NCBI RefSeq assembly: GCF_964355755.1 | Contig: NC_092670.1 | Span: forward strand, 33,654,388-33,718,387 | Direction of reading: 5' to 3' | Length of the DNA: 64,000 nt | From: Antedon mediterranea | Taxonomy: Eukaryota > Animalia > Echinodermata | Shown here: piece by piece, positions 1,083 to 40,724 of the stretch | Layout of the letters: each line of letters starts with the position of its first letter | Numbering within the stretch: the first letter of the stretch is position 1 | Notes under the pieces: model-generated | Told to the model about the DNA's origin: nothing | Database searches by the model: none | Seen by the model: only the letters and a program-made list of their open reading frames with translations | Position numbers and translations under genes: made by a program

Positions 1083-1206
1083 ACGCTGAAATAGTTATTA
1101 TGTTTAAATACTTCCCATTAAAATAGACTATGGCACACATTACACAGACAAGTAAGCGCTGATTTGTAAGAAAATAGAATAAGTTACCGATTAATTTACT
1201 TTACAG

Positions 1207-1266
1207 AAACCTTTCTAATAATTCACTTACAAGCCTACCAACGTTTCCAAAGATAATCTCTTCAGT
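1207..1266 (+). CDS. Paralog LRR exon (exon-3-like)
   Basis: NLSNNSLTSLPTFPKIISS; CAG/GTAAGT. Confidence 0.8.
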
Positions 1267-4200
1267 GTAAGTACTATAGTATACCATCCAACTACTAATT
1301 GTACATTTATTAAAACCATGATCTTTTTTTAAACATTATTTTGATCACTAGGCACAGTAGTAAAGATTTATTTTATTCCTTACTGAAACAAAAAATGTTA
1401 CAAAAAAAAAAAAATGAATATTTGTCATTGAAACATTTAAAAGATTTATGAAAAAAAATTGTCAATTTAAAACGATAACACATCACTTGAGTAACATAAA
1501 ATGAATATTTTGCTTTTGATTTTAGCTCATCCTGCCTTACTTGATAAATTGTATCCATGAATTATTATCCATGAAACCTTTGAAAATGTGGAATTGCGAT
1601 TTTTAAATAACTGATTATCGGTACTATATCTATGTCCAGTTTTCAAACATCTTTATTTCACAACTATGAATGATCAGAATTTTCAAAATCTGCAAGCAAT
1701 AATAGTATAAACAAATGTATACATCTATAAGCTTAGATTATGCAATATATAAAGGCTACCTAAAGTAAACTAAACTACTTGCGGTTTAGGAGGAGATAGA
1801 GAAACAAATTTTGACTTAGTGCTATTAAAATATAGATAAGTGATGGATGTTAAGTTAATTAAAATAAAACTAGAGATATAAATTAAACTAGAGGTTTGTT
1901 TTTAACATAATTTTTTTTTACAGCAATATAAGCTATAACAACCTGAAGGAAATCGACGACGATGCTTTGTTAGATCTACATTATCTTATATCAATGTAAG
2001 GTTTAGACTTATATTTGTTTCATTATGAATAATAAAGTAGCAGTAATAATAACTATATTTTAACATACATAACCCATTATTTAAGATTTGACTGAAAGTA
2101 CTGAATACTACTGAATACTGAATACTGAAATGCTTTATTTGTCATCATCATCATAAAATAACAACAGAAATTCTTCTTGAAGATTGACAATTATTAGTAA
2201 AATAATAAATAGATAAGGTCATAATATCGCCATCAATGCTGATAACACAACTCACAGAATATATTTACTCGTTGGTGTTCCGTCAAGGAAGTGTGAGAAA
2301 AATAAAACCCTCACTATTTCCTGGTTACGTGTACATCCGGAACTTACAATGTGAAATGCAATGTGGACACACCCGATCTGAGTGTAAGTTAGGTGTTAAC
2401 CCAAAACTAAATTATATTAAGGTGAATCATTACACCAAAATGTATACGCTAGTTTTTGTTTTTATTTTCGTTTTTTTTTTTTATAGAAACCTTTAATTTT
2501 TTAATTTTCTAGATATGCAATGAATAACATGTTGACAGAAATATCGACATGTTTTAATGACCTTCCACATCTCCACACTGTGTAAGTTTATCATCCATTT
2601 ATAAATCGATTTATCAACTGTTTCTAACATATATTTTTATATGCCTGCATTAAAAGAAGATGTGTTTGTATTGTGCCAAAATATATATTGTTGTACATTG
2701 ATTATTGACTAAATAATAAAGGTGTAATTACCACTTTAAAGCTTACAATCCAACGGAACTAGATAAATGAAAAGTTGAAATAGTCTGTAGTAGAATTATA
2801 CAATCATGTGGTCAATACAATTATTTAGGTAGGTATAACCGCATGGTTGCCGTAATACGGAACACTATGAATGAATTACGCAATTTGCTATGCACATACA
2901 TGTTGTAGACGAAGCTGATGTGTATTCAGATGTACATATGTCTTTCCATGTCGTCGAACGTAACAGAACGCATGTTCAGAGCTGTTAAGAGCAGTTGTCT
3001 ATAAATATTGACATTTAGGTGGCCAAGTCATAAAAAATGATTTTCTTTAAAATTTGCAAAATGAAAGAGGTTTGGTTGAAACATGCACAGATAAAATTAT
3101 TTTTTTTAAACTGTATCTAGTTGCCATAGTAACAGCCATTTTAAAAATTACAGTATTTTCTTGTAATTTATTCTATAATTTCACCTTCAAATTAGGTAAA
3201 CATTAATTTCAATAACTCTTACAGCGATTGTTGAAATTTACTTTAATATTTAATACAAGATGATGAAATAATAACTAATAAACAAACTGAAAGCAAAACA
3301 TTGCATGTTGGTCGGGTATGGGAATGGACCGTACCATTTATTTTACCATTTTTGTTTTTACTTGATTTACCTTTCGTACAAACCACGTCAGCCAAAAAAA
3401 TCGACCAGAGTGCCATTGGTCACAACCTACCACCCTAGGTTGCCTCCATTACGGGCTTTTATTGAGAAACATATGCCCATTCTACAGTCCATAGAACGTC
3501 TCAGGACTGTTTTTCCGGAACCACCCATTATTGCATTTCGTAGACCTCCCATCCTTCGTGATATATTAGTCAGATCCAAATTTAAGAGTAAAATTAACTC
3601 TCATGACAGCCAGAATTTGGGCAGTCACCTTTGCGCCAAATCTTGCAAAACTTGCTCATTGGGTGATTCTACTGAAAAATTTGAGAGTAACCAAACTGGC
3701 CGCATTTTTCGGATAAGACAATCAATTAATTGTCTAACCAAAAACGTCATTTATCTCATATACTGTAATATTTGTGACAAACAGTACGTCGGAGAAACAA
3801 AAAAACACTCTCCGTATGAGAATGACACAACATAGATCAGCTATCAAAACATTAAAGCTTGATCAACCTGTAGCCGAACATTTTAATTCAGCTGGTCACT
3901 CGATTGCAAATTTCAAAGTTATTGCAATAGACCACGATATCAAATGGAGCGACAAAACTCGCAAAGACAAAGAAAACCACTGGGAATTACTACTTAAAAC
4001 CACAAAACCTTTTGGACTTAACTTTAGGAACATACTCCCAGATCGGTAAAATTATTCCATTGTTTACCAAAATTTAAGTTTCAATATTAACCACAAATTT
4101 TAGCTGTATTTTTAGTTCCATTCCAAAATTGTTTATATCTCTACCAAGGTACCTTCTTTGTTTTCTACTCTTATTCAGTCTCCACCCACTATTCAACACG

Positions 4201-7200
4201 CTGTTTCTATTGTTATATTTCTTATGTATATATATGAGCATTTTAGATATATTAGTCATATATTAAAAATAATTTTTTAGATACGAAAATGTTTATTTAA
4301 AGCTGTATTGTCCCCCTGAAACAAAATAATTTTATACTTTTTTGTTGTTGTTGATTATGTCATTTTAATATCATATAATAATTTTACCTGAAAAACTGTA
4401 CCGGAAATTTAAAGCAAAAAATAGTCAAATTGGCTGCCAGCCAATAGGTTTTTGGTCGAATTTAATCATTTATTTTGTCATTTTAGTAAAAACATGATTT
4501 TTTCTTCATTTTTTTCTACGCAATTTATTAACTTGATTAAAACTACAAAATACCCTATTCAAAGTCTGATGTAATTAGTCTTCATTTATTATGTTTTTTG
4601 GGACAATACATCTTCAGTAACTTCATATCCTTATGTGACATCATTAATTATCTAATTACAATCAACTTGAATCAAAATAAAGAGACTTTGCTTTATACAT
4701 TGATACCAAAAATTATGAGCAAGGAAAAGATAATTGTGTTCCCTACCCCAACATTTTTGTTAATATAGATTGTTGTGTTCACTGTATATAGGTAGGCATC
4801 ATAAAGATACCAACATGTACGTAGTGTAGACCTCTGATATCCCATGTACTGTATGTTGTTGCTTGTAACCCGTTTTTCCTTCACAACTCAAACTTATGGC
4901 CATGTCAAGAACTTAATCACAAGATGTTGAGGTGTCTCCTGATAATTTATTAATCTTGCCCTGGCCAATAATAGACCATTTTCATTAGTCTAGAGTGCAA
5001 TGTTATCAAACAACTTGATAGCCTTGGACTGTGTCCCTTCTTTGAAGTTGTTTTTTCTATAAATATATTGGGTTGGATGTACCAGTAAGTCATTATTTAA
5101 AAATTGTTCGTTTTCATCATTTTTTTTTTGTCGAAGTGAATAACTATTGTAACATTAAAATTGCGTATTGTCATTCAATTATAAGAAAACATGTGTGGTG
5201 TCATTTAAGTCTTTGACCTTTAACATTGTGTCTCCAGAATAAAGTACAGATTAAATGTTAATGTAAAGCTTTAAGGCCACATTTATATTTGTACCTAATA
5301 CATTCTTATTCAAATACTCAAGTTTAGGATATAAAATAATTGTATATAGAATACTAAATTGACCTTTGACCTCGACTACAAAGGAAAAATTAAATTAGTT
5401 ATTCTGAAGGTTAAGGATAATGTTTGTATGTGTTTAACATTTTTTTTACACAAAACGTAGTGGTTAAAGACAAAATTAGGGAAAAAGTTTTCAAATTTCA
5501 GCCATTTTGAATTTATAGAAAATAAGTAATTACTAATAAACAACCCAGTGTAGATTTTAGATACTAATATCTATATAGGCCCATATTTTAGTATGTTTTA
5601 ACAACAACAAAAATAAAACATTTTTGGACTGAAAAGATTACAAAATTACAAATAATATGAGAAAATGCAAATTTTAACTAGAAACACTACACAGAAATTA
5701 CATGATTCCCCGCGATAACTTTAGCGGAAACAGGAGGAGCAATCTTTTAACCAACCATGCTTACACCATGGTTGTTTTTGAAGCGTTACCATCTCGTTGG
5801 AGTTATAGCTATTTGAAAAAAATACACAAATTCCCATGTATGAAATTTCTGAAAACACCCCTAAGAAAAATAATAGTATCTTCTAAATTCAATATGGATT
5901 TACGTAAATTTTTGTTTTACATTAGAGCAAGATTGCTACAAAAAGAATTCACAAAAACGATTCACATATTCTTTTTCGTTTTTCATTGGTGCCATATCTA
6001 CGCCTAAATAAGGGCAAAATTCACATGCTAAAGTGGTAAAATGTTGACAACCATTAATGTTTTGTTCACAAATATATCAGTTTTGTTATGTTTACCTAAA
6101 GTGTGATTAATTACCAAAGTATGAAGAACATTTTTTTTTTGCCATTCTGCCACCTTTTAATGTAATATGTTTATATTTGTAGTCAACCGCTCTTAAATCT
6201 CTCATAAATATGAATATCAAAATGTTTAAGAGTTACTATTTATTTATTTGGAATTACACCTTTAGATGTAATTCCAAATAAATAGCCAATCACATGTGGC
6301 TGAAACTATTCAACCAGATCGTATGCACCATCATAGTGTCAAGAGTACGCGCATCATGTAGGCGTCTTCATAGACTGTGAATTTAGCTCAAATTGTATAC
6401 GTATAAAACGCCATAAAAATGTGCCAAAAATAATAAACCGAAACACAGTATAGAACCTATAATTGATAGTGAGTTTCAAGGTTGTGAAGATGGGAAATTT
6501 CCTGTTTTAACATAATGCTTTCTGTAAACAAACTACTATGATGGATATTATAGTATGAATGAGAGACAGGAATGTTGGTATTAATGTCATTATTACTATT
6601 TGAACAATATTTATTATTTATAATACTTCATTTTGTGTTGCTTTTGGAATAGAATAATAGATCACAACAGTATATCTATACTAAAAAATACTACATTTAA
6701 AGGCTCCAGTAGAGTAGATCATGTGTAAGTGAATACATTTAAAACAAGGCCAACAGCCATTAAGTCGCGTGCTACAATGCATAGTGATACCGGACCGACA
6801 GACAGACCGACAGACCGACAGACCGACAGACAGACAGACAGAGAGACCGACCGACCGACATAGTGAACTATACTGACCGATATTACTGAACATGTTTAAA
6901 AATTTTGAAATGTTTAAAAACATTTATTTTTTTTTTTATTTACACGTGCGTAGCCTGTCACTTTCGACGTGCTCGTATAACGTAATTTCGAGTTGAAAAG
7001 TAAGTCAAGAAAACAGAAATCGGGCAAAAAGAGTGCGCAATAACATTTAACGCGCAGTGCGCGCGCAAAAATATGCGCACTCATGGCAATTTTGTAAACG
7101 CTTAAAATTGCCTGAAATGTACTCTTATTTCATCGAAAATAAATTTTGAAAATGTTAAGCGCGCGTACGCATGCGGTACATGCGCTACGCACGTAATTGT

Positions 7201-7767
7201 ATTGCCATATGATGATTTATGCCCTGAAATTTATGAGTACCAAATTTTATTTAATTGTGATTCATGGTTGTGAAGATATGATTACAAACGTGATTTCGTT
7301 AAATCGTGCGTAGACCACGTAATTTTTTATTGCGCACCGTGAAAACATAACCACATTGATTCCTGTCCATAAGGAATATACTGTGAAAAATTGACTTAGA
7401 TAGATTAAACTGATATCAAGATAAGGTCAGAAAGCGATAAAACGCATAGTGATACCGGACCGACAGACAGACAGACAGACAGACCGACAGACAGACCGAC
7501 AGACAGACAGACAGACAGACCGACCGACCGACATAGTGAACTATAGAGTCGCTTCCACGCGACTAAAAATGCATATTAACAATAACGAAAATCTGCAAAC
7601 TATTACTGCTACTCATACTACTGCTGCTGCGTTCGGCTACTGCTACGACGACTTCTACTACGACGACGACGACTACGACGACGACGATGACGACTACGAC
7701 AACTACGACGACTACGATGACGACGACTACGACGACTACGACTACTACGACTACTACGACTACTACG

Positions 7768-7816
<49 letters not shown>

Positions 7817-9849
7817 ATCTATATATAAATTTACGTAAGGGCAAAATTCGGTAAATCGCGCCTTACTTTTAGAATTTTTACTCGATGGTATGTAAAGTTG
7901 GTTCGAACTTTCGGTACTGATTTTAACCACCTGATGTAACCCTGTTTACTAATTAAATTAAGTTAGATAATTAGTTATTGACGATTAAAACGAATTTAGG
8001 TTCAAAGATTTGCCCCAAATAGGGGTGTTTTCCGATCGTGGTATACACTGTCTAATGGATGTCCATCTTGAAAAATACCCGCCACAAAAATGCGAGGAGG
8101 CTTCGCATTTTTCTATCTCCTCCTACGATAATTGTTTTTAATAGCTGAAAACCGGTTGAACAGTTCGAGTACAGCATCATAATGTTGAAGACAGGCCGAT
8201 TTTCTTTAAAAAATACTATTTTGATACATTTAATATACGTTTTTACAAATATATTGATTTGTGATGAATGGAACATTCCAAATTATTTGGTTTAACCATA
8301 CAGGTATAGATTTAGATTTATGGGCCTCCTTGGGAATAAACATAAATAGTATTGCAATGCTGTACAATACTGTTAAGGTATTAACCACTTTTGATCGCAA
8401 TTTGAATCGCAAATGTCTTACTGTGAGTGTTGGTACTGTTAGATGTAATATAAAAATATATACAAATAAACTTTATTACTGTGAGTGTGGGTAGGCCCTA
8501 CTGTTAGATTATAAACATATAATATACAAATAAACATTCCAAATTATTTGGTTTAATCATAAAGGTATAGATTTAGATTTATGGGCCCCCTTGGAGAATA
8601 AACATAAATAGTATTGCAATGCTGTACAATACTGTTAAGGTATTAACCACTTTTGATCGCAATTTGAATCGCAAATTTCTTACTGTGAGTGTTGGTACTG
8701 TTAGATGTAATATAAAATATATACAAATAAACTTTATTACTGTGAGTGTGGGTAGGCCCTACTGTTAGATTATAAACATATAATATACAAATAAATAAAC
8801 GTTATTACTGACAGTTGCTTCTCAACGTTTGTATTAATTAATAATTTAAAAATATATAAACGTCGTAGTGGTGTATCGTTACATGTACTTTACTATTTCA
8901 ATCGACTATGACAGTGAGAGTTTTAACAAAGTACCGTATTAAATCGTAAATGTTTTACTGTATTTAGTGGTATATTATTTATAGGCCTATAAAACATTAA
9001 AAACAATATTTCGTTACTGAGTGGATAAGAATATATTTTAAAATGTTTCCTCTTTGTACCTATCTTCTTTCCCCATCCCTCAACCCTTAATGTTACATAC
9101 AAAACACAAATTGGGTTTTTTTAAATGAGTCCAAATAAAAAAATTTGTTTCTCTCTCGGAAGTAATTCCCAGGGTGCTAATTTTGGTTGACTACATAAAT
9201 CATTGTGTATATTTATTCGTTTCTGTAAACGACAATGTATTATAGTCCTGCGGTACGTACATTTGAAATCTCCATTTTTTTCTCGCTGGAAATACTGTGT
9301 ATTCGAGAACCATCTGTGGGCACGACCTAGATGGTACGCGAGCGAAGCGAGCGTGCCATCTAGTACTACTAATACTACTAATATTATTAATATGACTAAT
9401 ACTACTACTACTATTACTACTACTACTACTATTACCACAAATACTACCACTACCACTACCAGTACAAATACCACTACGAATGATGCTACTGCTTTTGTTG
9501 CTGATGCTGCTGCCATTGCTGCTACTTCCACCACTGCCGCTATTGCCGATATCGCTAATACTGGTACCGCTACTACTGCTAATTTACCACTATCACCGCT
9601 ACCACCTCTTCTTATCTCTACTGCCACTATCACTACTATCATTAGCATTACTACCAATACTACCACTATCATTTTCACTACTACCACTATCATTATGACT
9701 ACTACCACTAATAGCACTGCCACTACTGCCAAAATCACCACTACTATTGATAATAATGATATAACTGTTTTTTTTTTCAGATACATGTCGTCAAACCATA
9801 TACTTGGCATTGAACCTTTCACTTTTGTAAATATGCAGTTAAGGTTATT
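1207..9849 (+). CDS. Partial inverted paralog of the LRR gene (five LRR exons; 5' end outside the window, no 3' exons found)
   Basis: Exons 1207-1266, 1924-1995, 2513-2581, 6653-6724 and 9781-9849, all AG/GT, phase 2-2, no stops; homologous to minus-strand exons 3, 2, 4, 5 and 6; introns also align. Confidence 0.75.
1924..1995 (+). CDS. Paralog LRR exon (exon-2-like)
   Basis: NISYNNLKEIDDDALLDLHYLIS; CAG/GTAAG. Confidence 0.8.
2513..2581 (+). CDS. Paralog LRR exon (exon-4-like)
   Basis: YAMNNMLTEISTCFNDLPHLHT; TAG/GTAAG. Confidence 0.8.
2989..6192. mobile_element. Non-autonomous DNA transposon, TTAA TSD and GAG...CTC termini (Sola3- or Kolobok-like)
   Basis: TTAA|GAGCAGTTGTCTATAAATA ... 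TATTTGTAGTCAACCGCTC|TTAA; absent at the homologous site (~44970) of the minus-strand gene. Confidence 0.7.
3372..4200 (+). mobile_element. Penelope-like element 3' fragment (GIY-YIG endonuclease)
   Basis: VPLVTTYHP, AFRRPPILRDILVRS, CKTC, NVIYLIYCNICDKQYVGET, RMTQHRS, PVAEHFN; one frameshift near 3800. Confidence 0.9.
6653..6724 (+). CDS. Paralog LRR exon (exon-5-like)
   Basis: IIDHNSISILKNTTFKGSSRVDH; TAG/GTAAGT. Confidence 0.8.
6743..7569 (-). mobile_element. Helentron/HINE-like non-autonomous element with (GTCY)n tracts
   Basis: Minus strand starts TTTTTAGTCGCGTGGAAGCGACT (hairpin), has GTCT/GTCG repeats and ends GGCCTTGTT; absent from the homologous intron at ~40935. Confidence 0.6.
7605..7816. 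repeat. (GAC)n/(TAC)n microsatellite
   Basis: Trinucleotide run; homologous to part of 40230-40900. Confidence 0.95.
8273..8795. repeat. ~260-bp direct tandem duplication
   Basis: ACATTCCAAATTATTTGG...ATATACAAATAAA occurs at ~8273 and ~8534, near-identical. Confidence 0.9.
9360..9760. repeat. Degenerate (ACT)n low-complexity tract
   Basis: Source of spurious Thr/Val-rich ORFs. Confidence 0.9.
9781..9849 (+). CDS. Paralog LRR exon (exon-6-like)
   Basis: YMSSNHILGIEPFTFVNMQLRL; CAG/GTAAG. Confidence 0.8.
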
Positions 9850-10342
9850 GTAAGTTTGTTGAAATAGAAAATATGTTTTATTGTAATTGAAAAGAAAATA
9901 AAAGAGAAAAAGACAATGAATAAAAATTAAAATAAGGAATCATCATCATATAATTCAGACCTTTATAATTCCTCAATTTTTGCATTTTTTTCATTGCCTA
10001 CATGGTTTAATAGTACTAACGATAATAATTATTATTCTTGTAAACAAGCATAATTACCTCAGCCAAGGAGGTTATATGTTTACCCCTGTATGTTTGTGTT
10101 GTGTGTGCGTCTGTGAACAGCCTGGAGCCCACAGTTTTTATCCGAATCTGGATTTTCCACAATGATCTATGCCCCAAAAGCTCAGACGAGTTCGATTGTG
10201 AGGGGAAAAGGTCATAGGTCTAGTTCACAACTATAACACAAAACTATTTTACTGTTTAGAGATCAAAGTTTTATCCGATTCTCAAACTTAAAGCTACAAT
10301 GATCAATGACTCATCATATAAAGGAATTTATATATATATATA

Positions 10343-11170: not shown

Positions 11171-11216
11171 TATATATATATATATAAACACATTAGGCAA
11201 TGAACATTAATATTAA

Positions 11217-11289
<73 letters not shown>

Positions 11290-13990: not shown

Positions 13991-15031
13991 AAAATACCAG
14001 CTTATTCCCGATTTCCGTTCGCGTGATCCATTTAACTTTTGCCTCAGGCTACAAAAAATTCGAGGCAAAATGTTCACCAAATTTGCAGGTTATTTAAGCG
14101 ATAATCCAATTATACTCGGCCTTCGAGGATAATAAATCTCCGATAGAGGCAATGTGTCAAATTTTGCTGCCTAGGCCCGTCATTTCTCCTACGAAGCTCT
14201 TCCATACACGCTTCGAGAGCGATCGTCAGCTGGTGCTGTCCTTGTTGGTGTAGACCGCTTAGTAGGCCTAGCTGGTCGGTGGTGTTTCCGTCGTGTAACA
14301 TTGGGCTCAAATTCTTCGTCAAGGAGTAAAATAATGGTCGTCAGTTGAAGGCATATTTCGGCAGGATTATCGGCGTTAAGAGGCATAAGGTTTGTCGCAA
14401 GGATAAAAGGTAGCAAGTAATTGTTATTGTAAAGAAAGATCGCGAGTAAAAAATATACAACACGAAACTAGAGTGCGAAAATGGGGTCGTAGGTTGTAAA
14501 GACAACTGACCTTAAAACGTAATTTCTGGTTTGTGATTCGTCGATTAAGCATTTAAGCGGTTAAATATTCCAAGTACGAACAACGCTTAACTGAGTTAGT
14601 AAGAAGTCGAATAAATAAAAAATTAAAAATTAAAAAAAAAGGTATCAACGTTTTGTTTTTATTGACATTCTTGTTTACACTAACATTTATTATTCCAACT
14701 GTGATTAACTATTTGCTAGCTACATTTGTTACCAAATACCATAATACCAGGTGAAACTTTCTACACTAGATTAATTGATCCGATGCGTACTGTCCAATAT
14801 TTTAACTTAAAAACAAAATTTAAATTTATCAATATCACAAAAAAAAAACTGTCCAAAAATGGAATATATTTAATTCCTTATTCATCACTATCTTTAAAAA
14901 ATATTGAAAATCCAAAGTTTGTTTTTTTTTATTTTTTATTTATTTCTAAATCAAACCAACAACAAAACCAAAACAAGAAATATAAGAACTAGAGTGATAA
15001 TATAAATATTACCTTAATATAAAAACCAAAG

Positions 15032-15156
15032 CTATATTATAACATTATTTTCCTCAGTGTGTGATTCCTCATGGTCATCATCATCGATCTGAAGAAGCAG
15101 TGCCCCACTAATCTGACGTCGACAAAAGTCTGTTTTAAGTTTCTTCAAAAAATCAA
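15032..15156 (-). CDS. Exon 19: short acidic cytoplasmic tail and stop
   Basis: VDFLKKLKTDFCRRQISGALLLQIDDDDHEESHTEENNVII*; TTTTCAG acceptor, phase 1 matches exon 18. Confidence 0.85.
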
Positions 15157-18100
15157 CTGAAAACGAGAGCAAACAAATAATTTAATAAAAAGTACCCAGA
15201 AACTATTTGTTTTATAAGCAATTGGCTAAATCTGGTGGTTTGATAGGCCTATATATTCATTATATACATTCGCTTAATTCCTTACCAATTACGATCAGCA
15301 TGATAGAAACATTCAGCATAATTAGAATAACGGGAGTTATCTTGTGTAGCAAACCAATGACGTCATCTCCATTGACATTTTGATCCACGTTTACAATCGC
15401 CCCAATGGATAGATTGACAACGATAAAGACAAGAGTCAACAATTGAAATCTTTGCTCGGATTTCTCTTTCATTGGCTGAAGGTACAAATGCAATACAATA
15501 AAGATGACAGTAAAAAACAATGAGTATGACAAACTTGATGACACGTCATCTTTTAAGTTGGAAATGAGTGCCAACAGAGCCTTGTTGTACAGCTCAAATG
15601 ATTCCCAAAACCAAAATGTGTGCTTGTATTGTCCACAAAAGAACCTCACACCAATCATCCGTCCTTGATCTTGGTTTTCTTCATGTTGATCACAATGTAC
15701 ATGTAGACAGTATAGCATAAGAACTATTACCAATGGGAAGCCAATGATGTATGTTAAAGAAACGTAAACAAGTGTTTTGTTGACTTCATATGTAGATCCA
15801 TTATTTTGGTCAAGATCAATCGAGTAGTCTGACGTTAGTACTGTTTTATTGACATTACCATCTTCTGTAACGTTATATAAACGAATTGACCATGGTCCAA
15901 CCGCCATGATGTCTGCACATGTATTTGCATATGTAAGGTAAAGAAGTAGCATTGACACAACGATACATTTGTCACGTGTGCGGCTCTTAGTTATTACCCC
16001 ATGACACGTATGCCACGTATAAAACATAAGGTAAATAGCGGACATAGTTATTACTATGAAAACAGGTGTGCAAATAGCAACTTGAAGTGACGAATATGCA
16101 TTCCAAGATTTAAGTAAACATCTTGGGCTTAGCATACTAATATATCTTATGACGTCAAAATACTCAAGTATTCTACCAGCAAATTCATAGCTTTTAGGCC
16201 AGTGAATTTCAGTTACTTCTGACAGTATACCTAAAACCTGATAGAAGTTTATAGAAATTTTTAAATATGTCACAAATGAATCTAGTTTTGTTTGTCGCTG
16301 GTGGTCGGTGTTCCTTTGTTGTAATCTCCAAATGAGACATATAACTCCAATCGTTACAAAAATAACACACATAAATATGACAACAGTTAGGAGAGGGCCT
16401 TGGCATTTGTGACATTCGTTAAATAACTGATAATATCCTTTTGAACATGCTGCACAAAGCCAACCAGTGTATCCTTTAGCACAAGTGTCATTTAATTCCA
16501 ATCCAATGCTACAACTATTATTTCCTAGAGGACACAGGTGAATTTGTGGTAATGGACCTTTGTATACAGCATATTTTAGTTGGTTTGGATCGTCAATGGG
16601 AAAATTGTAGTTTTTTAAATTATTTATAAATGTGTTGTACGCCGACAAACAAGAACTTTTGTTTTGTTCTTCATCTACAATACAATCACCAGGAAAATCC
16701 CAGGACCACCAGTATCCACGTGTTAGATTCATATATCCTTCATTACACGTGACGCCCTCCGGACAAGGCATACATGGACCAAACCGATCAGTTCTATGGA
16801 ACTTGTCGAGGCAATAACAAGCATTTAGATTAGCAAATGCACTTGTATTGGTTCCAGATGGACACGTCTGGCAATCCGCGATAGAAGCTGCTCCTGCATT
16901 TTCTGAAAAACTTCCAATAGGACATTGTTGACAGGTCTCTCTATAATCAATCTTTCCCATAACTCCGCGTTTTTCTTGATAGAAGCCACCTGCAACGACG
17001 AGATAATAATGTTTGCTAAATTTAAATAAATATGTCAAATGTAAATATTATTTGCTATTTAACTGAAAACAATTTGATGTCATTTAAAATGTTGGACATA
17101 AATTAATTAATAAATGCCATAAATTACCTGGAGGGCATTTTTTACATGATGTTTCACGTTTCGACATTATTTTGTATGTTCCCTTTTGGCATGGACTGCA
17201 TATTCTCGTTTCTGAATTACACGTCATACCAGTACCCAGATAAATATACCTTAATATCTCTTCAGAAATGTCTACATTGATGTCTGTATCTTCAGTAACA
17301 CAAATACTAGTAAACAATAAATTATAATAACAATAAGTTTTGCAAAAATTGTTGTCTTAGTATAAACATAGGTACTATAACTGATAAATTGCAAAAGTCC
17401 GCAGTGACTTGTCTAAATTTATATCTCATCAGGAGGAACTCAACGCACTTGGAGCATTTAAACTAAGAGATAGTTCACGTACATGTACGGCATACATTTG
17501 GCGTATATATTGCGTAGCATACGCCTTTATGTGAACTAAGCAGTATCGTTATTAACGCAATTACGCCACGGCGTTATTAATGACAGCTATATACCTATCT
17601 TAACGTACGCCAATAACTACAGCGAATCTTGAATAATTTTACCTTATTTCAAGATATTCATAATCAATTCATGTTTTACTGTTGTATTGTAAATGTTATT
17701 GCTGATATAAAAACAACTGAGCTATTTAGCTGCTCTCTGCTCTTCGATCTGAAAGCGCATGAAATGTTTAGGGTGAAATAAAACATTCACTTTTTTTCAC
17801 AATGTATCCCACTTTATAATTTATTACAGATTAATTCAAAGTATTAAATAAAAGATTAATTAAACCCTGGTGGATAAAAAAAGATATTATGGAGTGGAGT
17901 ACCATCAAGGTCATGCCCACAGATGGTTCTCGAATAACAGTAATTTCAGCGTAAAAAAAAAATGGCGATTTTCAAATTTACGCAATGCTTAGTTTGTCCT
18001 TCATATGAACGAATAAATGAACACGGTGATTTATGTAGTCAACCAAAATAAGCTCTTCATCAGTGCAAGTGAAGGAATTTGTATAACGTCATAGTATAAG

Positions 18101-24785: not shown

Positions 24786-27700
24786 ATAGCAACGTACACC
24801 AACAATGGCGTAACTTCCAACAGCAACGTACACCAACAATTGCGTAACCTCCAACAGCAACGTACACCAACAATGGCGTAACCTCCAACAGCAACGTACA
24901 CCAACAATTGCATAACCTCCAACAGCAACGTACACCACCAACAATGGCACAACCTCCAACAGCAACGTACACCATCAATCACGTAACCTCTAACAGCAAC
25001 GTACACCAACAATGGCGTGATATCCAACAGCAACGTACACCAACAATGGTGTAACATCCAATAATAACGTACCCCAACAATGGCGTAACCTCAAACAGCA
25101 ACGTACACCAACAATGGTGTAACCTCCAACAGCAAATACACCACCAACAATGGCGCAACCTCCAACCGCAACGTACACCAACAATGGCGTAATCTCCATC
25201 AGCAACGTACACCAACAATGGTGATTAAATTAATTAATTAAATTTCAGTATATCACCGGGCGGTTTAGAATTAATGTTCATTGCCTGATGTGTTTATATT
25301 ATATAAAGTATCTCTTCGGAGATCCCGCCTCGTGAATAAAAATACTGAAAGATGAGGGCGTATCAATTTGATCTCTGGTGCGCGTGCGTACAACTGAGGA
25401 CTAGTGCTGTTCCACCGTACCACGCCGAGAATGTTAAAGAGTCGCTATCCAATCGAGTTTGAACAATACCATGAAAGCCCCAGTGGTCTAATGGTTAGGA
25501 CATCTGCATATCAAGCAGGCGGTCCGAGTTCGAGTCTCAGTTGGGGCGACTTTTTCTTATTCTCACAGATTTCCTCATCTTTATCGTTTCAAATTAATTA
25601 ATTAAATTTCAGTATATCACCGGGTGGTTTAGAATTAATGTTCATTGCCTGATGTGTTTATATATATATATAAGTATCTCTTCTGAGATCCCGCCTCGTG
25701 AATAAAAATACTGAAAGATGAGGGCGTATCAATTTAATCTCTGGTGCGCGTGCGTACAACTGAGGACTAGTGCTGTTCCACCGTACCACGCCGAAAATGT
25801 TAAAGAGTCGCTATCCAATCGAGTTAGAACAATACCATGAAAGCCCCAGTGGTCTAATGGTTAGGACATCTGCATATCAAGCAGGCGGTCCAAGTTCGAG
25901 TCTCGGTTGGGGCGACTTTTTCTCATTCTCACAGATTTCCTCATCTTTATCGTTTCAAATTAATTAATTAAATTTCAGTATATCACTGGGCGGTTTAGAA
26001 TTAATGTTCATTGCCTGATATTTTTATATATATAAAACTATCTCTTCGGAGATCCCGCCTCTTGAATAAAAATACTGAAAGATGAGGGCGTATCAATTTG
26101 ATCTCTGGTGCGCGTGCGTACAACTGAGGACTAGTGCTGTTCCACCGTACCACGCCGAGAATGTTAAAGAGTCGCTATCCAATCGAGTTTGAACAATACC
26201 ATGAAAGCCCCAGTGGTCTAATGGTTAGGACATCTGCATATCAAGCAGGCGGTCCGAGTTCGAGTCTCGGTTGGGGCGACTTTTTCTCATTCTCACAGAT
26301 TTCCTCATCTTTATCGTTTCAAATTAATTAATTAAATTTCAGTATATCACCGGGCGGTTTAGAATTAATGTTCATTGCCTGATGTGTTTATATATACATA
26401 TCATTAATTCTAAACCTCCCGGTGATATACTGAAATTTAATTAATTAATTTGAAACGATAAAGATGAGGAAATCTGTGAGAATGAGAAAAAGCTCCAACC
26501 GAGACTCGAACTCGGACCGCCTGTTTGATATGCAGATGTCCTAACCATTAGACCACTGGGGCTTTCATGGTATTGTTCGAACTCGATTGGATAGCGACTC
26601 TTTAACATTCTCGGCGTGGTACGGCGGAACAGCACTAGTCCTCAGTTGTACGCACGCGCACCTGAGATCAAATTGATACGCCCTCATCTTACAGTATTTT
26701 TATTCACGAGGCGGGATCTCTGAAGAGATACTTTTATATATATAAACAAATCAGGCAAAGAACATTAATTCTAAACCGCCCGGTGATATACTGAAATGTA
26801 ATTAATTAATTTGAAACGATAAAGATGAGGAAATCTGTGAGAATGAGAAAAAGTCGCCCCAACCGAGACTCGAACTCGGAACGCCTGCTTGATATGCAGA
26901 TGTCCTAACCATTAGTCCACTGGGGGCTTTCATGGTATTGTTTGAACTCGATTGGATAGCGACTCTTTAACATTCTCGGCGTGGTACGGCGGAACAGCAC
27001 TAGTCCTCAGTTGTACGCACACGCACCAGAGAATATATATATATATATATAGATTCGTTGAGTCAGCAAATGTGCTCAATTGAAATCAAGAGCGAATATA
27101 TATTTATGAATTAGATAGAACACGGGCGTCTATTTCACGGTGTTTCACGTTAAACGATCTTATATATATATATATATTATATATAACTCATGATTTGCAA
27201 AATATGATTTACGTTAGTACCTACCTACATTATAATTAACAAAAAATAAATAAGTACTTTACGTTTTTATATTTTTTTCAATACCATTCGGGAGTGATTG
27301 TAGTCCACCGCAGTTCAGATATCTAAATAAAGATAAGGTTGTATTAAGTACATGCGAGTTCAGTGACATAATGGAAAATGATGATACTAATAGTTTTAGA
27401 TAATGAACAAGATAGTTACGAAATAATGTGTTTTTTTTTCCTTACATTGTTCCATTTTCTTTCATATTTGACAAAGCATTTTCCCCGATCTTGTCTAATT
27501 TATTGTCAAATAGATATCTGAAAAAAAAATGTCATTAGTTTGAAATATCTTTGTTTTGGTTAGGTTTCTAATTAATTAAAACGTCTATAACACAGATCAA
27601 AAATGTATTATTTTACTTATTTTAAAATAGTAACAAATCTCACATGTATTTCAGCGTTTTACCATTGGTTGTTAATGTTTGATAGGTAATGTTAGCAATT

Positions 27701-30700
27701 TCATTCCCATAAAGGAAGCTGGAGAAAAAAATAATGAACACATGAATGACTTTATCATTTAAGTTCAACGGCGTCATCGTCATAATCGTCGTCATCATCA
27801 TCATAATCATCGTCATCGTCATCAGCATCGTCTGATATGTAAATAGCAGCTCTAAAAATTAAAAAAAATGTTTGCTCGCTTTACGTCAAAATAGCATTTA
27901 CTATTCTTAAAATGTTCCAGTGCTTTTCTTTAAAACATACAAATGCTGCATGCAACTTTCAGGTAATCTATAAAAAAAAACACGGATAACTTTTTTCTAT
28001 TGAATAGTGTAGAAAGTTATTTAACGTGCACTATTATGTACACGGGACCAATATTGTAATTAACTTACAGAAACTGAAGATTAGTTCCACTAAATGCCCC
28101 TTCTTCTATAGAGGTAATGCTGTTTCCCATTAGCATTCTAACAAAAAATTATTATAGATTAAGCATTGTTTTAGATAGGTTTGAAGACTAAAACATTATG
28201 TTTTAAATGAAGCTTTTAAAGGAATTATAACTTGTTTAGATTATTTTTCATGAGCAAGACATGTACACGTTTTAAATCCATATCTGAGAAGACGTTTTCC
28301 ACCACCAGTATTTTGGTGAAGGAGAGTCTTGTCTTTCTTAAACATTCGTCAATCGAAATGATGATTATACTTACAGCCTCTCAAGGGATTCCATATCAGA
28401 AAAGATATTTTTGGAAATGTGCTGAATTTTATTTTTGTGTAATAGTATGTTCTGAACTGGAGGTATCCGGCCGTCTTCTAATGATGTCAGATTGTTCCAG
28501 CTTAAATCTCTAAAAGATACACAGTGCGTAAGAAGGCATCAAAATAATGTATTGCCGATTGTTTGACTGAACAAAATACGTAACTACTGTGGTATCATAA
28601 TACTAACAAAAGGTCACTCATTAGATTATTAGACTTAAGTGGACTAGGTACAGGAGTTGACACTTAAGAATGACGGATCTTCAATTAGACTCTAAAAAGA
28701 AACATTTTTGCATTTGTTTTACATGTGTACTCATTATGTTAATTAATTCTAGGTGGGACATATATTGACTTTTGACCCTTTCTTAAGGGGTCATGGTACA
28801 GGATTTGGCACTTAAGAATGACGTTTTCTCAGTTAGGTAAATGTACTTATTGTATTGTCAAAAGTTTCATCGATGTACTCGACCATGCTAATTAAAATGC
28901 TAATTAGCCTCAGACCTTTTGTACTCGCAATGCTAAACAAATCTTCATAGGCTGCCGGATTAATATTAAAACAGTAAGACCTAAAGAGACAACATTTAAT
29001 ATTGGTAGAGCATTTCATAAATTTGCGATTAAGTGAGTTGCTTCTAATACACAAAGATATGAACTGACTATAAATGCATTCGCCTTTATCTTTCAGTATA
29101 TTAAACTCTCTAAATTGTCCGGTGATAAATCAAGATATCAGGTTTGTAATTTTGTTTTAGTTATTATCCTTCCAAATTGAATATTATATAATTTGATTTT
29201 ACGACTGTGGGTCACATGGCGTGCAATAGTACGAACTATTAAACGATCGTTTAATAGTACTTTTTCGTGTACAAAAAAAAACCTTTTTGCGTTTGGGAAA
29301 ATATTTTGTTTATATTATTGATTTTGATGCCACCTAGTTCGTACTTTCGCCGCGATTTGAATGTTATGACTGGTTTTCCGCAAAGGAAGTACTTTTCTAG
29401 ACAGATATATGTACTAATTTAGATCAAAAATGCACTTATTAGTTTTATATCATTTGTAGGATTTTGATTAATTAATAGGAACATCCCTACAAGACGTGGA
29501 ATCGTCGGAAAAACATAATTAGCCTAGATGAGTAACAGTTGTCTGTCAAAGTTGCCTTCCAGCCTAGGCCTAGCTAGTACTAGCCTTGGCCTAGGCCTGT
29601 TGGTATTATGCTAAGCCTAGTCTAGGCGTTTTAGCCTTGCTAGGCCAAGGATTGTTCCGTCGTTTGTTGACAAAGTTAACACTAACGTAGGTGTGTTTAT
29701 AAAATCCATATAAATATAAAATTTAATATAATATTATTAAAATCAAAATGTTACTGTTTTAATCAATGTGACTCAAATGTAGCCCTTAGCTTGGGCTATA
29801 TTTTATTTGATTAACATGACATGAATCTATTTAGATGTTACATGAAACAAATAGTAAATGTTTTATATTTGTGTAATGAAATAATGGCATTTTGTGAATG
29901 ATGAAGGGTTAAAAATTACCTTTCATCATTCACCTTAAGCTATTATTTGTACCATTACACTCATAAACATTCATTATTTGTTTACCATTTATTATGTATT
30001 GAATGTACTACCACCAGTTCAAAAGATTGTAAGTTACCAACAAAAGAAAAAGAACATAAACACTTACAGTAAAAATTCTATTCGTGAGTTAACAATGTTT
30101 GGTAGTTCCGTAAGTTGGTTGTTCGTAAATTGTCTACGTAAAGAATCATTTAATGCACTGTATTAATAATGACTTTTCCTTCTTTTACGATATCATAATC
30201 ATTATAACGAATACGTTTAATTAATAAGATTATAATAATATCTAAAACAAATTCTGGTTTTACAGGTGTATACTAAAATGTGTTACTGTGGAGAAGTGAG
30301 ACAATTTATAACTACAAAACTGTATATAAATCTTTTATTTTTGCATTACTGTTTATTTATTATAAAAAAAATGCTTATATAAGATTATTTTAAAATTGGT
30401 TTACGCATGCACCAAACTCACAGTAGACGGATAGTGTCCACAGCAACGAAGGCATCCTTATCTATAAATCGAATTTTGTTTTCTGCGAGTGAGCTATAAA
30501 AAAATACATAAATAACTTGTAAGAATACTTTGCATAGAATAATATACATTGGTTGTAAAACATTTGCTCCATCATCTTTCCAAATAACTATCGATAGTAA
30601 AATTAATTATGCCTAAATTGATTTCATTTTTTTTTTACATTTAGAAAAAAGCAAAATTAACCAAAAGTTAATTGATATTCGACGATGGTTAGCTTAGCAG

Positions 30701-31961
30701 TGAGGAAATACTTACATCTCTTTAAAATATTTTCCTTGAAAAGCTCTTGCTGGTATGCTCTGCAGACTGTTTCCAAATAAAAATCTAGGACAACATTATT
30801 CCAAAATTATAAACACATTTGAAGTGAAACTGCAAGCAAATCTTTGAAAGACCATGGCGATTGACTTAGGTTTCTTAGTAAAGTAAACACTATTATGAAA
30901 TTTGTCAAAACGTCATAATTATGCATATATCTCGATTGCCTTTTATAGAACAAGATTTACTATTTTGTTTACCATACGAGCCATTACGATAAAATAAATA
31001 AAATTTAAATTAAATTAAATGCAAATACAAGTATATAGTCCAGGAGCTTATGTCGAAAAAAAGGCACTTGTAGAATGTTGATGTTAATTGTCGGCACCAA
31101 CGTTTTTCTGACTCAGAAAAACTTTGGTGCCATTTTTTTCGACCATGGCAAGTGGCCACCATTTTGAAACCTACGTTTTTTTTTTACCTAATTTAAGGTA
31201 AAAAACTACATTTTATGTAAAAATTAATATAAATACTCATGTTGTATGTTTACGAAACAAATATAAAAGTATTCATTTTTAGTTAAATCCCCAAGACCTG
31301 AAAATGTTGTCGTTTTGTAAAAATAATGTAGATATACATATAATTTTAAAAACATTAAACCAAGTCTTGTCTTAAATGTACGTTCTAAGGTTAATTATGT
31401 TCAAAAGATAACGGTAACGTACGAACATCGTACGCTTGCTATAATGCTTAGCCCGACGTTGTCTCATTGCTGAAATAATTTTCTTTCCTTTTTTTGGCAG
31501 AATCCGTTAATACAAAATGGAAGAAGACCTGGTATTTTCGCAGAAAAGTTATGGTTCTCTTATTTGTTTTCACGATCGCTGACCGAAACTGATCGCATCC
31601 ATATCAACATGAAAATATCAATGCCTTGTGGGATTTAGCGGGCCGATTAAATTATTAGAATCAACTTATTTTTCACATTTTTAACAGTTTAAAGACGAAA
31701 AAAGTTATAAAAATAGGATCATATAGTATTTATTTTTACATAAAATGTAGTTTGTGACCTTAAATTAGGTCGAAAAAAAGGTAGGTCATAGGGCTTTAAC
31801 ACATTGTTACAGTAATAAACTCACTTATTTTAAACTTGAAATAATGTGTATAGCTATATTATCTATAGACAAAATTTAAACTTTCTAGAAAATGGTGTGA
31901 TGAATGTAGAAACTATATGTACAGCTGTACTAAGTATAAAATATATATATATAAATAAAAA

Positions 31962-37200: not shown

Positions 37201-40200
37201 TGTAACGGAATCATGGCCACTATCCTTCTTAAAATCTACATTTAAAATAATTGTACAAACTTCGGTTACAGGATTTAAAAAGAACGAAATTGGAGATGGA
37301 GCAGACATAATTTTAAACTAGATTTGAACTCGTCACTACGAACGAGTTAGGTTATCCGCAGCGCAAACGCCACGTGCACGTCATACGTTAGAATATTGCG
37401 CGCAAAAAAACGATTATGCTATTGAAAAAATGTTATTGCGCTCTCTATTTTGCGTCACGTCAAAGTATATACGGTATACACTGTATTCTGTATACGTACT
37501 ACATACAGTGCAGAATAGGTGAAAATAAAGGACCCAAGTTATTGACGCTTTTGGACATGATGACGTCATCACAATTTAAAAAATGGTAAATTATGCGAAA
37601 GATAATTGATTGGCCTAGACAATATAACAAAATGGGGGGAAATGGAATACGGATAAGTGGAGATGCGCTCTATTAAATGTGATGAGCTATGCGAAAGAGA
37701 CAAAAATCCTATATCTTATATTTGGGTGGCCATACGATGACGTCACAATGTCCGGTTAGCAATATCAATGCATGATTCGAGAAACACAACTCATCTACTT
37801 CCAGAATATGTAATTTTAAAAAAGTTCACCACATAGTTTAGAATTTATGACTGGTTAAAAAAAGGTCTAATTTTGACGATTTTTTGAAGTTTTTCATCAA
37901 AAACACGCGCAAATTATCCAATTCTACGTGCTCGTGTGACGTGATTTTAAGTCCAAATTGATTGAAAATTTATAAATTTACTAGAAAAGGCTGAAAAAAC
38001 AAAAATCAAGCAAAAAAAAGATGTTTTTGCGCTACGTGCGCACGCGCGCGTAAAAAAATTGCGCACGCTTGGGAATTTTTGAAATGCGTGCGCGCGTAAC
38101 TTTTTGTAAAACAAGCTATTTTTAATCCATAGAAAGTTTGCGCATGATATGACTTAAATTTTCACCAAGTTTCAATACAAAATGACTTTTAGTTTTTATT
38201 CTATGATCAATCATTGAAATTCACAAAATCGCGCGTAACTTACGCTGCGCGACTCGAAATTTGAAAATAAAAGTTTCTTGCACATCTACAGCTACATATC
38301 AATCTTATGAAAAAGTTATACAATCATATGTTGCCCAAAATTAGAGATATGCGACCAACAAAATTCATGGAAAGAAAGAAGAAAATAGAAAAAAAAAGAG
38401 AAAAAAAAAAAGATCCTGACAATAACAAGAGGTTATCCGCCAAGTGCGGATAACCAAAAAAATATTTAGAATAGGAAGAAATTGAGTTAGAAATTTGTAT
38501 ACCAATAAAGAAAAATATTTATAGAACCATTCTCGTTCATCGGTAATAACTGCATTATCACATAATACAGTATGGATTTGATCTGAATTTATATTGAAAC
38601 GACATGCTTTCAATTGTTTTGGATTGTTCAAGTTTAGATGTGTAATGTTTTTTTTGTAGTTCGACAAACTTGTTAAAATAATAATTATTATTATTATATT
38701 GATTGTATTCACGCTTATGTTGTGGGCTTCGGGATTGGATATTTTTTTTTGTATAGTTGATGATTGCGTTTACTGCATTTTAAGAAGCTGTATGACATAA
38801 ATTACTGTTTGATTTTGCCGTTTTTCCAATTATTAGTTGGCTTAGAATGCTTAGAATGAATACTATAATATTTGTTTAAGAACATTTGAAAAACAAATTC
38901 ATGATTAGAATCATAGATATCAGATATTTTAGTTGGTTAGATTAATATAAAATGAACTGATATCATTGATTTTCAATGACTGACTTGCAGTGAGCTTTTG
39001 AAGATGAACAATTGTATCTCTCTGCTGAGAGAATATCTTTTATTTTCATTACAACAGTACAAAAATATAATATGCCGATACATAATATACAAATATACCT
39101 ACATGCTTCCGGTTGTTATGTTTTTGAAAGTTCCAGTAGATATTTTTTCCAGATTAGGATTGTTTGAGACAAACCTATTAAAAAATATATAAGATATAAT
39201 TGTTATTTACATTATACAAGCCTATAACACATTTGTTTAGATGTTCCTTGCCCTATTTTTACAACGTTCGAAACGTTTTATAATTTACAAGTGCATCGTT
39301 TTAACATTGACGGTGCAATTATTTGGCATTTCCCTGTGTTATTATTTTTACATTTATGGGTATAAAGTGTTGGAGTCTGCATGTACAATGTATTGATGTT
39401 TCTTGGCATGTTTATTGTAGTTTCAATTTTCGCGATTGTAACAAGGGCCTTCAAAACAATTGTTTCTTAAATTAAATTACAGTAAAAAGTTAATAATTCA
39501 CAAATGTTACTTACACTTCAACAGTATAATCTGTAGCCAGTGCAAATGCATTTTCACAGAGCACTTGGATTTCGATGTCAAACTGAATCCGCCTACAACG
39601 TTAATATATCTAATTAATATATATATAATTATTCATGGTGTTGTTCAAACTCGATTGGATAGCGACTCTTTAACATTCTCGGCGTGATACGGTGGATCAG
39701 CACTAGTCCCTCAATTGTACGCACGCACACCAGAGATAAAATCGATACGCCCTCACAGATTTTTTCATCTTTATCGTTTCAAATTAATCTAATTTTAGTT
39801 TATCACCGGACGGTTTATAATTAATGTTCTACAGTATACCTGGTGTGTTTATATACCCTACCACCGCGTATATATGGTAGGAAAGTACAGTAAAGGTATA
39901 ACACCATCTCTTCTTGGCCATTTGGGATCAGTATAAAGTAACGTGAAATATTTTCAATTATTATCGTTAGTACTAATAAACCATGTAGGCAATGACAAAA
40001 ACTACAAAATTGATAAACTCAATTTTTAGGAATTATACAGGCCTTAATTGTATGATGTTCCTAACTTAAATTTGTCTCTTTTTTTCCATGCAAACCTTTC
40101 AATTACATTGGAACACATTTTTTATTTCAACAAACTTACAATAAATTTAACTGCACATTTACAAAAGTGAAAGGTTCAATGCCAAGTATATGGTTTTCCG

Positions 40201-40506
40201 ATATGTGTCTGAAAAAAAAAAGTTATATCATTTTTATAAGTAGTAGTGGTGGTGTTGGTAGTAGTGGCAGTGGTAGTGGTGGTAGTGGTGATAATGATAG
40301 TGGTAGTAGTATTGGTAGTAATGCTAATGGTAGTAGTAATAGTGACAGTAGAGATAAGTGGTGGTAGCAGTGATAGTGGTATGAGCGGTAGTAGCGGTAC
40401 CAGTATTAGCGGTATAGGCAGTAGCGGCAATGGAAGCAGCAATGGCGGCAGCATTAGCAACAAAAGCAGTAGCATTATCATCAGCAGTATTAGTAGCAGT
40501 AGCAGC

Positions 40507-40552
<46 letters not shown>

Positions 40553-40574
40553 ATAGTAGTAGTGTAGTAGTAGC

Positions 40575-40605
<31 letters not shown>

Positions 40606-40614
40606 ATAATAGTA

Positions 40615-40680
<66 letters not shown>

Positions 40681-40690
40681 CAGTAGCAGC

Positions 40691-40724
<34 letters not shown>

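What the first reader, a model, noticed from the sequence alone, without database searches (positions are those of the whole stretch)
2513..9849. Paralog differences are mostly nonsynonymous and cluster on the LRR concave face
Seen, by codon comparison with the minus-strand exons: exon 5 has 6 changed codons, all nonsynonymous (N/I, R/H, N/S, L/R, N/D, L/V), around 14 identical central codons. Exon 6 has 5, all nonsynonymous (H/Y, I/M, E/S, V/M, N/R). Exon 4 has V/I, S/H (3 nt) and one synonymous change. Most changes fall in or next to the xxLxLxxN beta-strand. Known: this is the signature of diversifying selection in VLRs, TLRs and plant NLRs. Exon 3 differs in the opposite way (5 synonymous, 4 nonsynonymous), suggesting a mosaic history.
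Basis: partly seen in the sequence, partly recalled or inferred. Interest (0 to 1): 0.7.

Follow-up and report, generated by a model that had tools for sequence, protein, structure and literature searches.

The report
LRR receptor with parasite-type membrane core
These exons are a truncated duplicate of a feather-star gene whose protein joins a leucine-rich-repeat arm to a membrane core related to the CRMP invasion proteins of malaria-type parasites, and copies of the family differ mostly on the arm's predicted binding face, which likely reflects selection to recognise changing foreign molecules.

Summary
The plus-strand exons (1207-9849) are an LRR-only inverted duplicate of an intact 19-exon, 1107-aa gene on the minus strand, from a crinoid. 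That gene encodes a signal peptide, about 16 LRRs (nearly one per exon), Cys-rich ephrin-receptor-like and DUF7630 modules, and a roughly nine-helix membrane core. The core is homologous to Plasmodium CRMP1 and matched no solved structure. Clustering on the concave strand is real: 9 of 20 concave codons versus 8 of 68 others, p=0.002. It recurs in other crinoid paralogs (23/80 versus 5/177 convex) and sea-cucumber paralogs (15/60 versus 1/81), but not in a sea-star cluster. 'Mostly nonsynonymous' is not beyond neutral (17 of 23; neutral expectation 81%). dN/dS above 1 is not shown for this pair (codon-level p=0.064). The firm signal is conservation of the convex face (p=0.008). The intact gene's own changes are concave-biased (4 of 5); the truncated copy's are not (2 of 7). 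Verdict: a known evolutionary signature on a receptor family I found no paper on. Positive selection is likely, not proven.

The parts
1207..1266 (+).
1924..1995 (+). Plus copy, LRR exon A' (72 nt); present in paralog P0001, absent from the minus gene
2485..2493 (+). Likely remnant of a deleted exon B': an acceptor AG after a T run plus the first 7 nt shared with exon B, 19 nt before the exon C start
   Evidence: sequence shown; the deletion is inferred from the A-B-A'-B'-C order of P0001. The local alignment did not extend to it
2513..2581 (+).
6653..6724 (+).
9781..9849 (+).
9850..10030 (+). Last stretch of unique intron homology to the minus gene; a tRNA-like repeat cluster follows at about 10343-11185
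57184..57389 (-). Intact gene, exon 1: signal peptide and LRRNT cap
48882..49784 (-). Intact gene, LRR exons A (49784-49713), B (49233-49174), C (48950-48882)
39103..41024 (-). Intact gene, LRR exons D (41024-40953), E (40208-40140), F (39592-39515), G (39174-39103)
27263..30784 (-). Intact gene, eight further LRR exons (30784-30716, 30493-30422, 30133-30068, 28509-28375 with two LRRs, 28137-28069, 27718-27644, 27517-27446, 27322-27263)
17128..17306 (-). Intact gene, cap and first ephrin-receptor-like Cys module
15286..16989 (-). Intact gene, large exon: Cys-rich modules, DUF7630 and the multipass CRMP-like membrane core
15031..15156 (-). Intact gene, last exon: short acidic tail and stop codon

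Best explanation
The plus-strand exons are a truncated, likely decaying inverted duplicate of an intact minus-strand gene for a predicted cell-surface receptor (LRR arm, Cys-rich stalk, CRMP-type multipass core), and the family's concave LRR face likely diversifies under positive selection to bind changing non-self ligands while the convex face and membrane core stay conserved. Shown: gene structure, domain order, homology of the core to CRMP1, concave clustering in several paralog sets, purifying selection on the convex face, LRR exon gain and loss, and a spliced exon D-E junction of the minus type. Inferred: surface location, ligand binding on the concave face, dN/dS above 1, pseudogene status of the plus copy, and a microbial or parasite ligand. 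By analogy with CRMPs, binding would be relayed through the membrane core without a TIR or kinase domain, possibly to trigger secretion; that step is speculative.
For: Intact 1107-aa ORF, all introns GT-AG, tail identical to P0013. Window pair: concave 9/20 vs 8/68; convex 4/42 is below neutral, p=0.008; joint pattern p=0.0005 under neutrality. With P0001 as outgroup, 4 of 5 minus-lineage changes are concave (p=0.009) against 2 of 7 in the plus lineage, which also carries two framework changes. Crinoid paralogs P0002/P0037: concave 23/80, convex 5/177, membrane region 13/369; minus/P0001: 23/82, 20/178, 37/370. Sea-cucumber paralogs P0205/P0208: 15/60 vs 1/81, with 8 of 653 differences in the Cys+membrane part. 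All 8 exonic variant sites listed for exon D across 4 runs change the residue; they fall in 6 codons, 4 of them x5, x7, x8, x10. A contig of run X5 joins exon D to a minus-type exon E and differs from the minus gene at three codons (x8, x2, L4), all nonsynonymous. The AlphaFold model of P0001 puts strands at the exon junctions. The same pattern was tied to positive selection by PAML in sea-urchin TLRs (PMC3367398, passages).
Against: No test gives dN/dS above 1 at codon level: p=0.064 against introns, p=0.13 against pS. Overall pN is below pS. Intron blocks were chosen by local alignment, which biases the neutral rate downward. Two pairs have concave/convex ratios of only 2.1-2.5, which relaxed constraint can give. 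The Patiria cluster shows 0-2 concave differences of 30-35 in all 6 pairs. Pairs that cover only the C-terminal LRRs show none (minus/P0034 0/20, minus/P0035 1/22), and P0037/P0039 shows 1/51. One synonymous exon-D variant is visible in a loose end, and the variant table omits sites near contig ends. The minus vs plus lineage contrast is itself not significant (p=0.24) and rests on one outgroup. No ligand, tissue or infection data. The plus copy keeps open frames and splice sites in all 5 exons.
Confidence: 0.62

Rival explanations
1. Relaxed constraint only: exposed strand residues drift at about the neutral rate while framework, convex face and membrane core are under purifying selection, so the clustering needs no positive selection.
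For: Concave changes 9 of 20 against a neutral mean of 5.4, p=0.064. Concave pN vs pS p=0.13. The strongest single signal is the convex deficit (p=0.008). Pairs minus/P0001 and P0063/P0215 imply concave omega near 0.8-0.9 if convex omega is as in the window pair.
Against: Concave/convex ratios of 10-20 in the closest paralog pairs would need convex omega of 0.05-0.1, whereas the window pair gives about 0.37. Convex positions are also largely exposed, yet are conserved. Variation is confined to N-terminal and middle LRRs, while concave residues of the last LRRs are conserved.
Confidence: 0.22
2. The plus copy is functional, either as a secreted LRR-only decoy or binding protein, or as a donor of LRR cassettes to intact genes by gene conversion, and the differences in this pair reflect selection on both copies.
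For: All 5 plus exons have open frames and AG/GT ends in phase, with no indel in the four orthologous exons while aligned introns carry many gaps. Other copies mix plus-type and minus-type residues within exon D.
Against: No downstream exon on the plus strand. None of the fetched proteins carries any of six plus-specific peptides. Plus-derived changes are not concave-biased and hit framework positions. A LINE fragment abuts the 5' end of the homology. Exons 1-2 would lie before the window and could not be checked.
Confidence: 0.12
3. The pattern comes from gene conversion that homogenises exon centres, or from pseudogene decay with clustered multi-base mutation, and lines up with the strand only because introns interrupt it.
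For: Introns fall in the middle of the strand motif, so exon ends equal the strand. Five changed codons carry 2-3 substitutions. Central codons of exons D and E lack even synonymous changes.
Against: Intron sequence next to the exons is no more diverged than average. Framework codons interleaved with the variable ones are conserved (3/81 in P0002/P0037; 1/60 in P0205/P0208). The pattern holds between full-length annotated proteins.
Confidence: 0.04

Closest known systems
Apicomplexan cysteine repeat modular proteins (Plasmodium CRMP1-4, Toxoplasma CRMPa/b; PMC9815656 and PMC9670195, passages read)
   Same: Ephrin_rec_like, then DUF7630, then a multipass core, in the same order. A profile of the membrane region alone hits P. 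gallinaceum CRMP1 at 56 bits over about 210 columns; no reversed control was reported at E<=10. About nine helices are predicted; the papers give nine for CRMPs.
   Different: The N-terminal sensor is an LRR solenoid rather than Kringle and other adhesive modules; 1.1 versus 3.0 thousand residues; no DUF7631 hit; a multi-copy, fast-diversifying animal family. Direct pairwise identity is only 24% over 136 residues, and the first third of the core did not align significantly.
Sea-urchin TLR multigene family (Buckley and Rast 2012, PMC3367398, passages read)
   Same: Expanded echinoderm LRR receptors with variation concentrated on the concave strands of part of the ectodomain, a conserved signalling end, and many pseudogenes.
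   Different: No TIR domain among Pfam hits; multipass instead of single-pass; one LRR per exon instead of mostly single-exon genes. Positive selection was shown there by PAML and is not shown here.
Brown-algal ROCO LRR genes (Zambounis et al., PMC3341825, passages read)
   Same: One LRR per roughly 72-nt exon, exon gain and loss, variable concave residues, many broken copies.
   Different: ROCO proteins carry a GTPase domain. Here the LRR exons of one gene are mostly unlike each other and differ in length (60-78 nt); only the A/B pair is tandemly duplicated.
LRR-containing GPCRs (LGR4/5, RXFP, GRL101)
   Same: LRR ectodomain on a multipass membrane protein; LGR4/5 ectodomains are among the top fold matches of the whole model.
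   Different: Those matches are carried by the LRR part. The membrane core had no 7tm Pfam hit and no significant fold match, and about nine helices are predicted.
Lamprey and hagfish VLRs
   Same: Variable concave face on an LRRNT-capped solenoid.
   Different: VLRs are assembled somatically from cassettes into an incomplete germline gene. Here the germline gene is complete and carries a multipass core.

Membership tests
CRMP-like multipass proteins | Cys-rich ephrin-receptor-like modules before the membrane core | tested here: met
   PF07699 and PF24633 in the window's exons and in CRMP1
CRMP-like multipass proteins | Homologous membrane core of about nine helices | tested here: met
   Membrane-only profile hits CRMP1 at 56 bits; AlphaFold model pLDDT 87.6 with nine to ten long helices; hydropathy finds seven strong segments besides the signal peptide, so the exact count is not fixed
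Apicomplexan CRMPs proper | Kringle or other adhesive N-terminal modules and DUF7631 | tested here: not met
   Pfam scans give LRRs instead
Apicomplexan CRMPs proper | Role in triggering regulated exocytosis as part of a heterodimer | not testable with these tools
   needs cell biology
Toll-like receptors | Single membrane helix and cytoplasmic TIR domain | tested here: not met
   Multipass core, short tail, no TIR hit
LGR / rhodopsin-class GPCRs | 7tm_1 domain by sequence | tested here: not met
   No 7tm family among Pfam hits at E<=0.1 for the large exon or E<=0.01 for 7 relatives
LGR / rhodopsin-class GPCRs | Seven-helix GPCR fold | tested here: inconclusive
   No Foldseek match at E<=0.001, best VIA Z 6.4; an unlisted family is not excluded
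VLRs | Incomplete germline gene with flanking cassettes assembled somatically | tested here: not met
   The germline minus gene is a complete 19-exon ORF; somatic rearrangement itself was not tested
Positively selected LRR recognition receptors | Variation enriched at concave x positions | tested here: met
Positively selected LRR recognition receptors | dN/dS above 1 at those sites | tested here: inconclusive
   p=0.003-0.01 per site, 0.064 per codon, 0.13 against pS; no paralog coding DNA available
Positively selected LRR recognition receptors | Immune-cell expression or non-self ligand | not testable with these tools
   only one spliced contig from a run guessed to be RNA

The most novel reading that the evidence does not exclude
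Echinoderms and cnidarians have an overlooked class of germline pattern-recognition receptors in which a positively selected, exon-modular LRR arm is wired to the CRMP-type membrane core that apicomplexan parasites use to fire their secretory organelles on host contact. It would signal without TIR, kinase or GPCR domains, possibly triggering exocytosis in immune or defensive cells, and it has diversified independently in crinoids and sea cucumbers.
Probability: 0.25. Interest if true: 0.85.

Novelty: new variant of a known kind. Interest (0 to 1): 0.5.

Why it matters
A variable concave face on an LRR receptor is textbook, and five exons of a truncated duplicate add little alone. The carrier is what matters. 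It is an LRR plus CRMP-core protein found in crinoids, sea stars, a brittle star, sea cucumbers, jellyfish and corals, and the public names I saw are 'uncharacterized' or borrowed from unrelated LRR proteins. If the selection signal holds, invertebrate immunology gains a further class of diversifying receptor besides TLRs and NLRs. It would also give an animal handle on how the CRMP membrane core signals, which is unsolved in malaria and Toxoplasma biology.

Tried and rejected
No whole genome is held, so paralog DNA and the region before position 1 could not be read; PAML and GENECONV on the family could not be run. The run search listed no holder on record as RNA. Laying reads on 1-12500 was swamped by repeats and gave only a rough hint of several copies. 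Fold searches of the membrane model found nothing significant (Foldseek no E<=0.001; VIA best Z 6.4). The profile search of PDB sequences returned LRR and Cys-module proteins in the 60 rows shown of 285. The homodimer prediction of the membrane core gave no answer (score 0.00, alignment not used), which is no evidence either way. Treating +1924-1995 and -49784-49713 as orthologous was rejected. An uncollapsed haplotype was rejected: inverted orientation, 11% intron divergence, different exon content, and an exact single-copy-depth contig for the plus copy. Early gene models had off-by-one exon ends and were corrected; this shortened the minus protein to 1067 aa without touching LRR counts. The automatic membrane-region count failed for the sea-cucumber cluster and was redone. 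Ten literature searches found no description of an LRR plus CRMP-core family; the library lacks most subscription papers, and I read no supplements, where domain tables could list it. Earlier-findings look-ups by place, sequence and family words were empty.
Full report
What is there. The window is AT-rich animal DNA. A protein search with the large minus-strand exon found a 100% identical annotated protein of the feather star Antedon mediterranea (P0013, 767 aa). That annotation starts in mid-gene. Using paralog P0001 as a guide I built a 19-exon model from 57389 to 15031 with all introns GT-AG. It reads as one 1107-aa frame whose tail equals P0013. It encodes a signal peptide, an LRRNT cap, about 16 LRRs with phase-2 introns in the middle of each strand motif, ephrin-receptor-like Cys modules, DUF7630, a multipass core and a short acidic tail.

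The plus copy. No later exon was found on the plus strand by tblastn or splice scans. Exon order differs between copies: P0001 has A-B-A'-B'-C, the minus gene A-B-C, the plus copy B-A'-C with a likely 7-nt remnant of B' at 2487-2493, and P0003 lacks B. Whole LRR exons are therefore gained and lost. The start of the plus copy would lie before the window, beyond a LINE fragment, and could not be checked.

Checking the observation. Over 88 codons there are 17 nonsynonymous and 6 synonymous changed codons; pN 0.105, pS 0.144, introns 0.114. A neutral simulation with the intron substitution spectrum expects 81% of changed codons to be nonsynonymous, so 'mostly nonsynonymous' carries no signal; 11 of 11 in exons D and E has p about 0.10. 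The clustering does carry signal: 9 of 20 exposed strand codons versus 8 of 68 others (p=0.002). Against neutrality the convex face is depleted (4 of 42, p=0.008) and the concave face is only marginally enriched (9 of 20, mean 5.4, p=0.064). The per-site test gives p=0.003-0.01 but counts multi-base codon changes as independent, and the test against pS gives p=0.13. The AlphaFold model of P0001 places beta-strands at these junction motifs; that their x residues face the concave surface follows from established LRR geometry and was not measured here.

Which lineage changed. With P0001 as a single outgroup, 5 changes in exons C-E are minus-derived, 7 plus-derived and 1 unresolved. Four of the 5 minus changes are concave (p=0.009); 2 of the 7 plus changes are (p=0.47), and the plus copy also changes two framework residues. 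The contrast between lineages is not itself significant (p=0.24). The reading is that the intact gene diversified its face while the truncated copy drifted.

Independent replication. The crinoid has about 17 annotated entries of the family after merging named isoforms, on six contigs. Of 14 pairs compared, 10 show concave above convex at p<0.01. Examples are P0002/P0037 (23/80 vs 5/177; membrane region 13/369) and minus/P0001 (23/82 vs 20/178). The four exceptions are two pairs covering only the last LRRs (0/20, 1/22 with the minus gene), P0001/P0035 (1/22) and P0037/P0039 (1/51); minus/P0003 is also non-significant (p=0.064), so the exact tally is 9 significant of 14. The pairs share members and are not independent. 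In a sea cucumber, three tandem paralogs differ at 14-29 of 459 LRR-part residues and 8-12 of about 655 residues behind it, with concave 15/60 vs convex 1/81 for P0205/P0208. A Patiria cluster shows no such pattern in 6 of 6 pairs, and one sea-cucumber pair (P0190/P0195) is identical apart from two LRRs. Without coding DNA these are amino-acid contrasts, not dN/dS. If convex omega were 0.37 throughout, implied concave omega would range from 0.8 to 7.5 over six chosen pairs.

Reads. On exon D, run X1 holds six contigs over the 5' half at depths 141-318, one identical to the plus copy. The 8 exonic variant sites listed all change the residue; one synonymous change shows in a loose end; sites near contig ends are not listed. 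A 137-nt contig of run X5 (RNA only by the tool's guess) runs from exon D straight into a minus-type exon E, as a spliced transcript would. It differs from the minus gene at three codons, all nonsynonymous, in the strand region. Whether it is an allele or a close paralog cannot be told.

The membrane core. A 100-sequence alignment gave a confident model (pLDDT 87.6, pTM 0.87) with nine to ten long helices, which matched no solved structure. A profile search returned Plasmodium gallinaceum CRMP1. A profile cut to the membrane region still hits it at 56 bits, along with 7 more of the 9 proteins tested at E<1e-5, while no reversed control was reported. Both proteins have Ephrin_rec_like and DUF7630 before the core. 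Toxoplasma CRMPs have nine membrane helices and are needed for rhoptry discharge on host contact (PMC9815656, PMC9670195; passages). phmmer found 1178 clusters at E<=0.001. Of the 20 I looked up, the named ones are crinoid, sea star, brittle star, sea cucumber, jellyfish and coral proteins; an Atlas lead under 0.9 points to sponges.

How it most likely works. An extracellular LRR solenoid on a Cys-rich stalk would bind ligand on its concave face, with specificity set mainly by the N-terminal and middle repeats. The family would change specificity by point substitution, LRR exon gain and loss, and gene duplication, leaving fragments like the plus copy. Signal output through the CRMP-type core is inferred by homology only. 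Confidence is 0.62 for positive selection on a recognition surface, 0.22 for relaxed constraint alone, 0.12 for a functional plus copy and 0.04 for conversion or decay alone.

Comparison and novelty. The evolutionary signature is known from sea-urchin TLRs (PMC3367398, passages) and brown-algal ROCO genes (PMC3341825, passages; PMC11378527 seen only as a search listing). PMC6993872 (passages) does not describe this architecture. The protein fails the sequence tests for TLR, VLR and LGR membership and passes those for a CRMP-like core. Ten searches found no paper on the LRR plus CRMP-core family; supplements were not read. Unchecked notes from this scan report similar cassettes in LRR-GPCR genes elsewhere in the same genome; I did not test them, and by their description those are a different family. 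Verdict: observation confirmed, interpretation partly supported, new variant of a known kind, interest 0.5.

Noticed in passing
window 57389-28509 (minus): The public annotation (P0013, 767 aa) misses the first 340 residues of this gene; the full frame is 1107 aa. Several other family entries also start in mid-LRR.
   Followed up: yes
window 10343-11185, 25100-27070, 39630-39840: A 364-bp tandem repeat with a tRNA-like head (ARAGORN: Asp, anticodon ATC, 7 copies) lies just after the end of the plus-copy homology and in two introns of the minus gene; it may have mediated the inversion or truncation.
   Followed up: partly
window 11400-11640 and 31950-34240: A second tRNA-like repeat (Thr, TGT; 6 copies called) in alternating orientation with (TA)n tracts.
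   Followed up: no
window 46799-46872: tRNA-Val(AAC)-like sequence inside an intron of the minus gene.
   Followed up: no
window 20000-25230 (minus): Decayed LTR-retrotransposon-like element (gag, protease and RT-like pieces by eye) flanked on both sides by 34-bp tandem repeats, plus a 49-bp array, in the intron before the Cys-rich exons.
   Followed up: no
window 50890-54690 (plus): LINE with a PHD-like ORF1 and an endonuclease/RT ORF2 of 774+182 codons (by eye) in the first intron of the minus gene.
   Followed up: no
window 3275-4100 (plus) and 18244-18640 (minus): Two 94%-identical fragments of a GIY-YIG (Penelope-like) element, one in each gene copy but in non-equivalent introns.
   Followed up: no
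proteins P0208, P0210, P0060 (sea cucumber): Entries whose accession order and isoform labels suggest one gene differ at concave residues in blocks shared with neighbouring paralogs; this suggests alternative LRR exons, or annotation chimeras across a tandem cluster.
   Followed up: partly
proteins P0013 vs P0001, P0034, P0035, cap region after the last LRR: The short segment between the last LRR and the first Cys module is also unusually variable between close paralogs.
   Followed up: no
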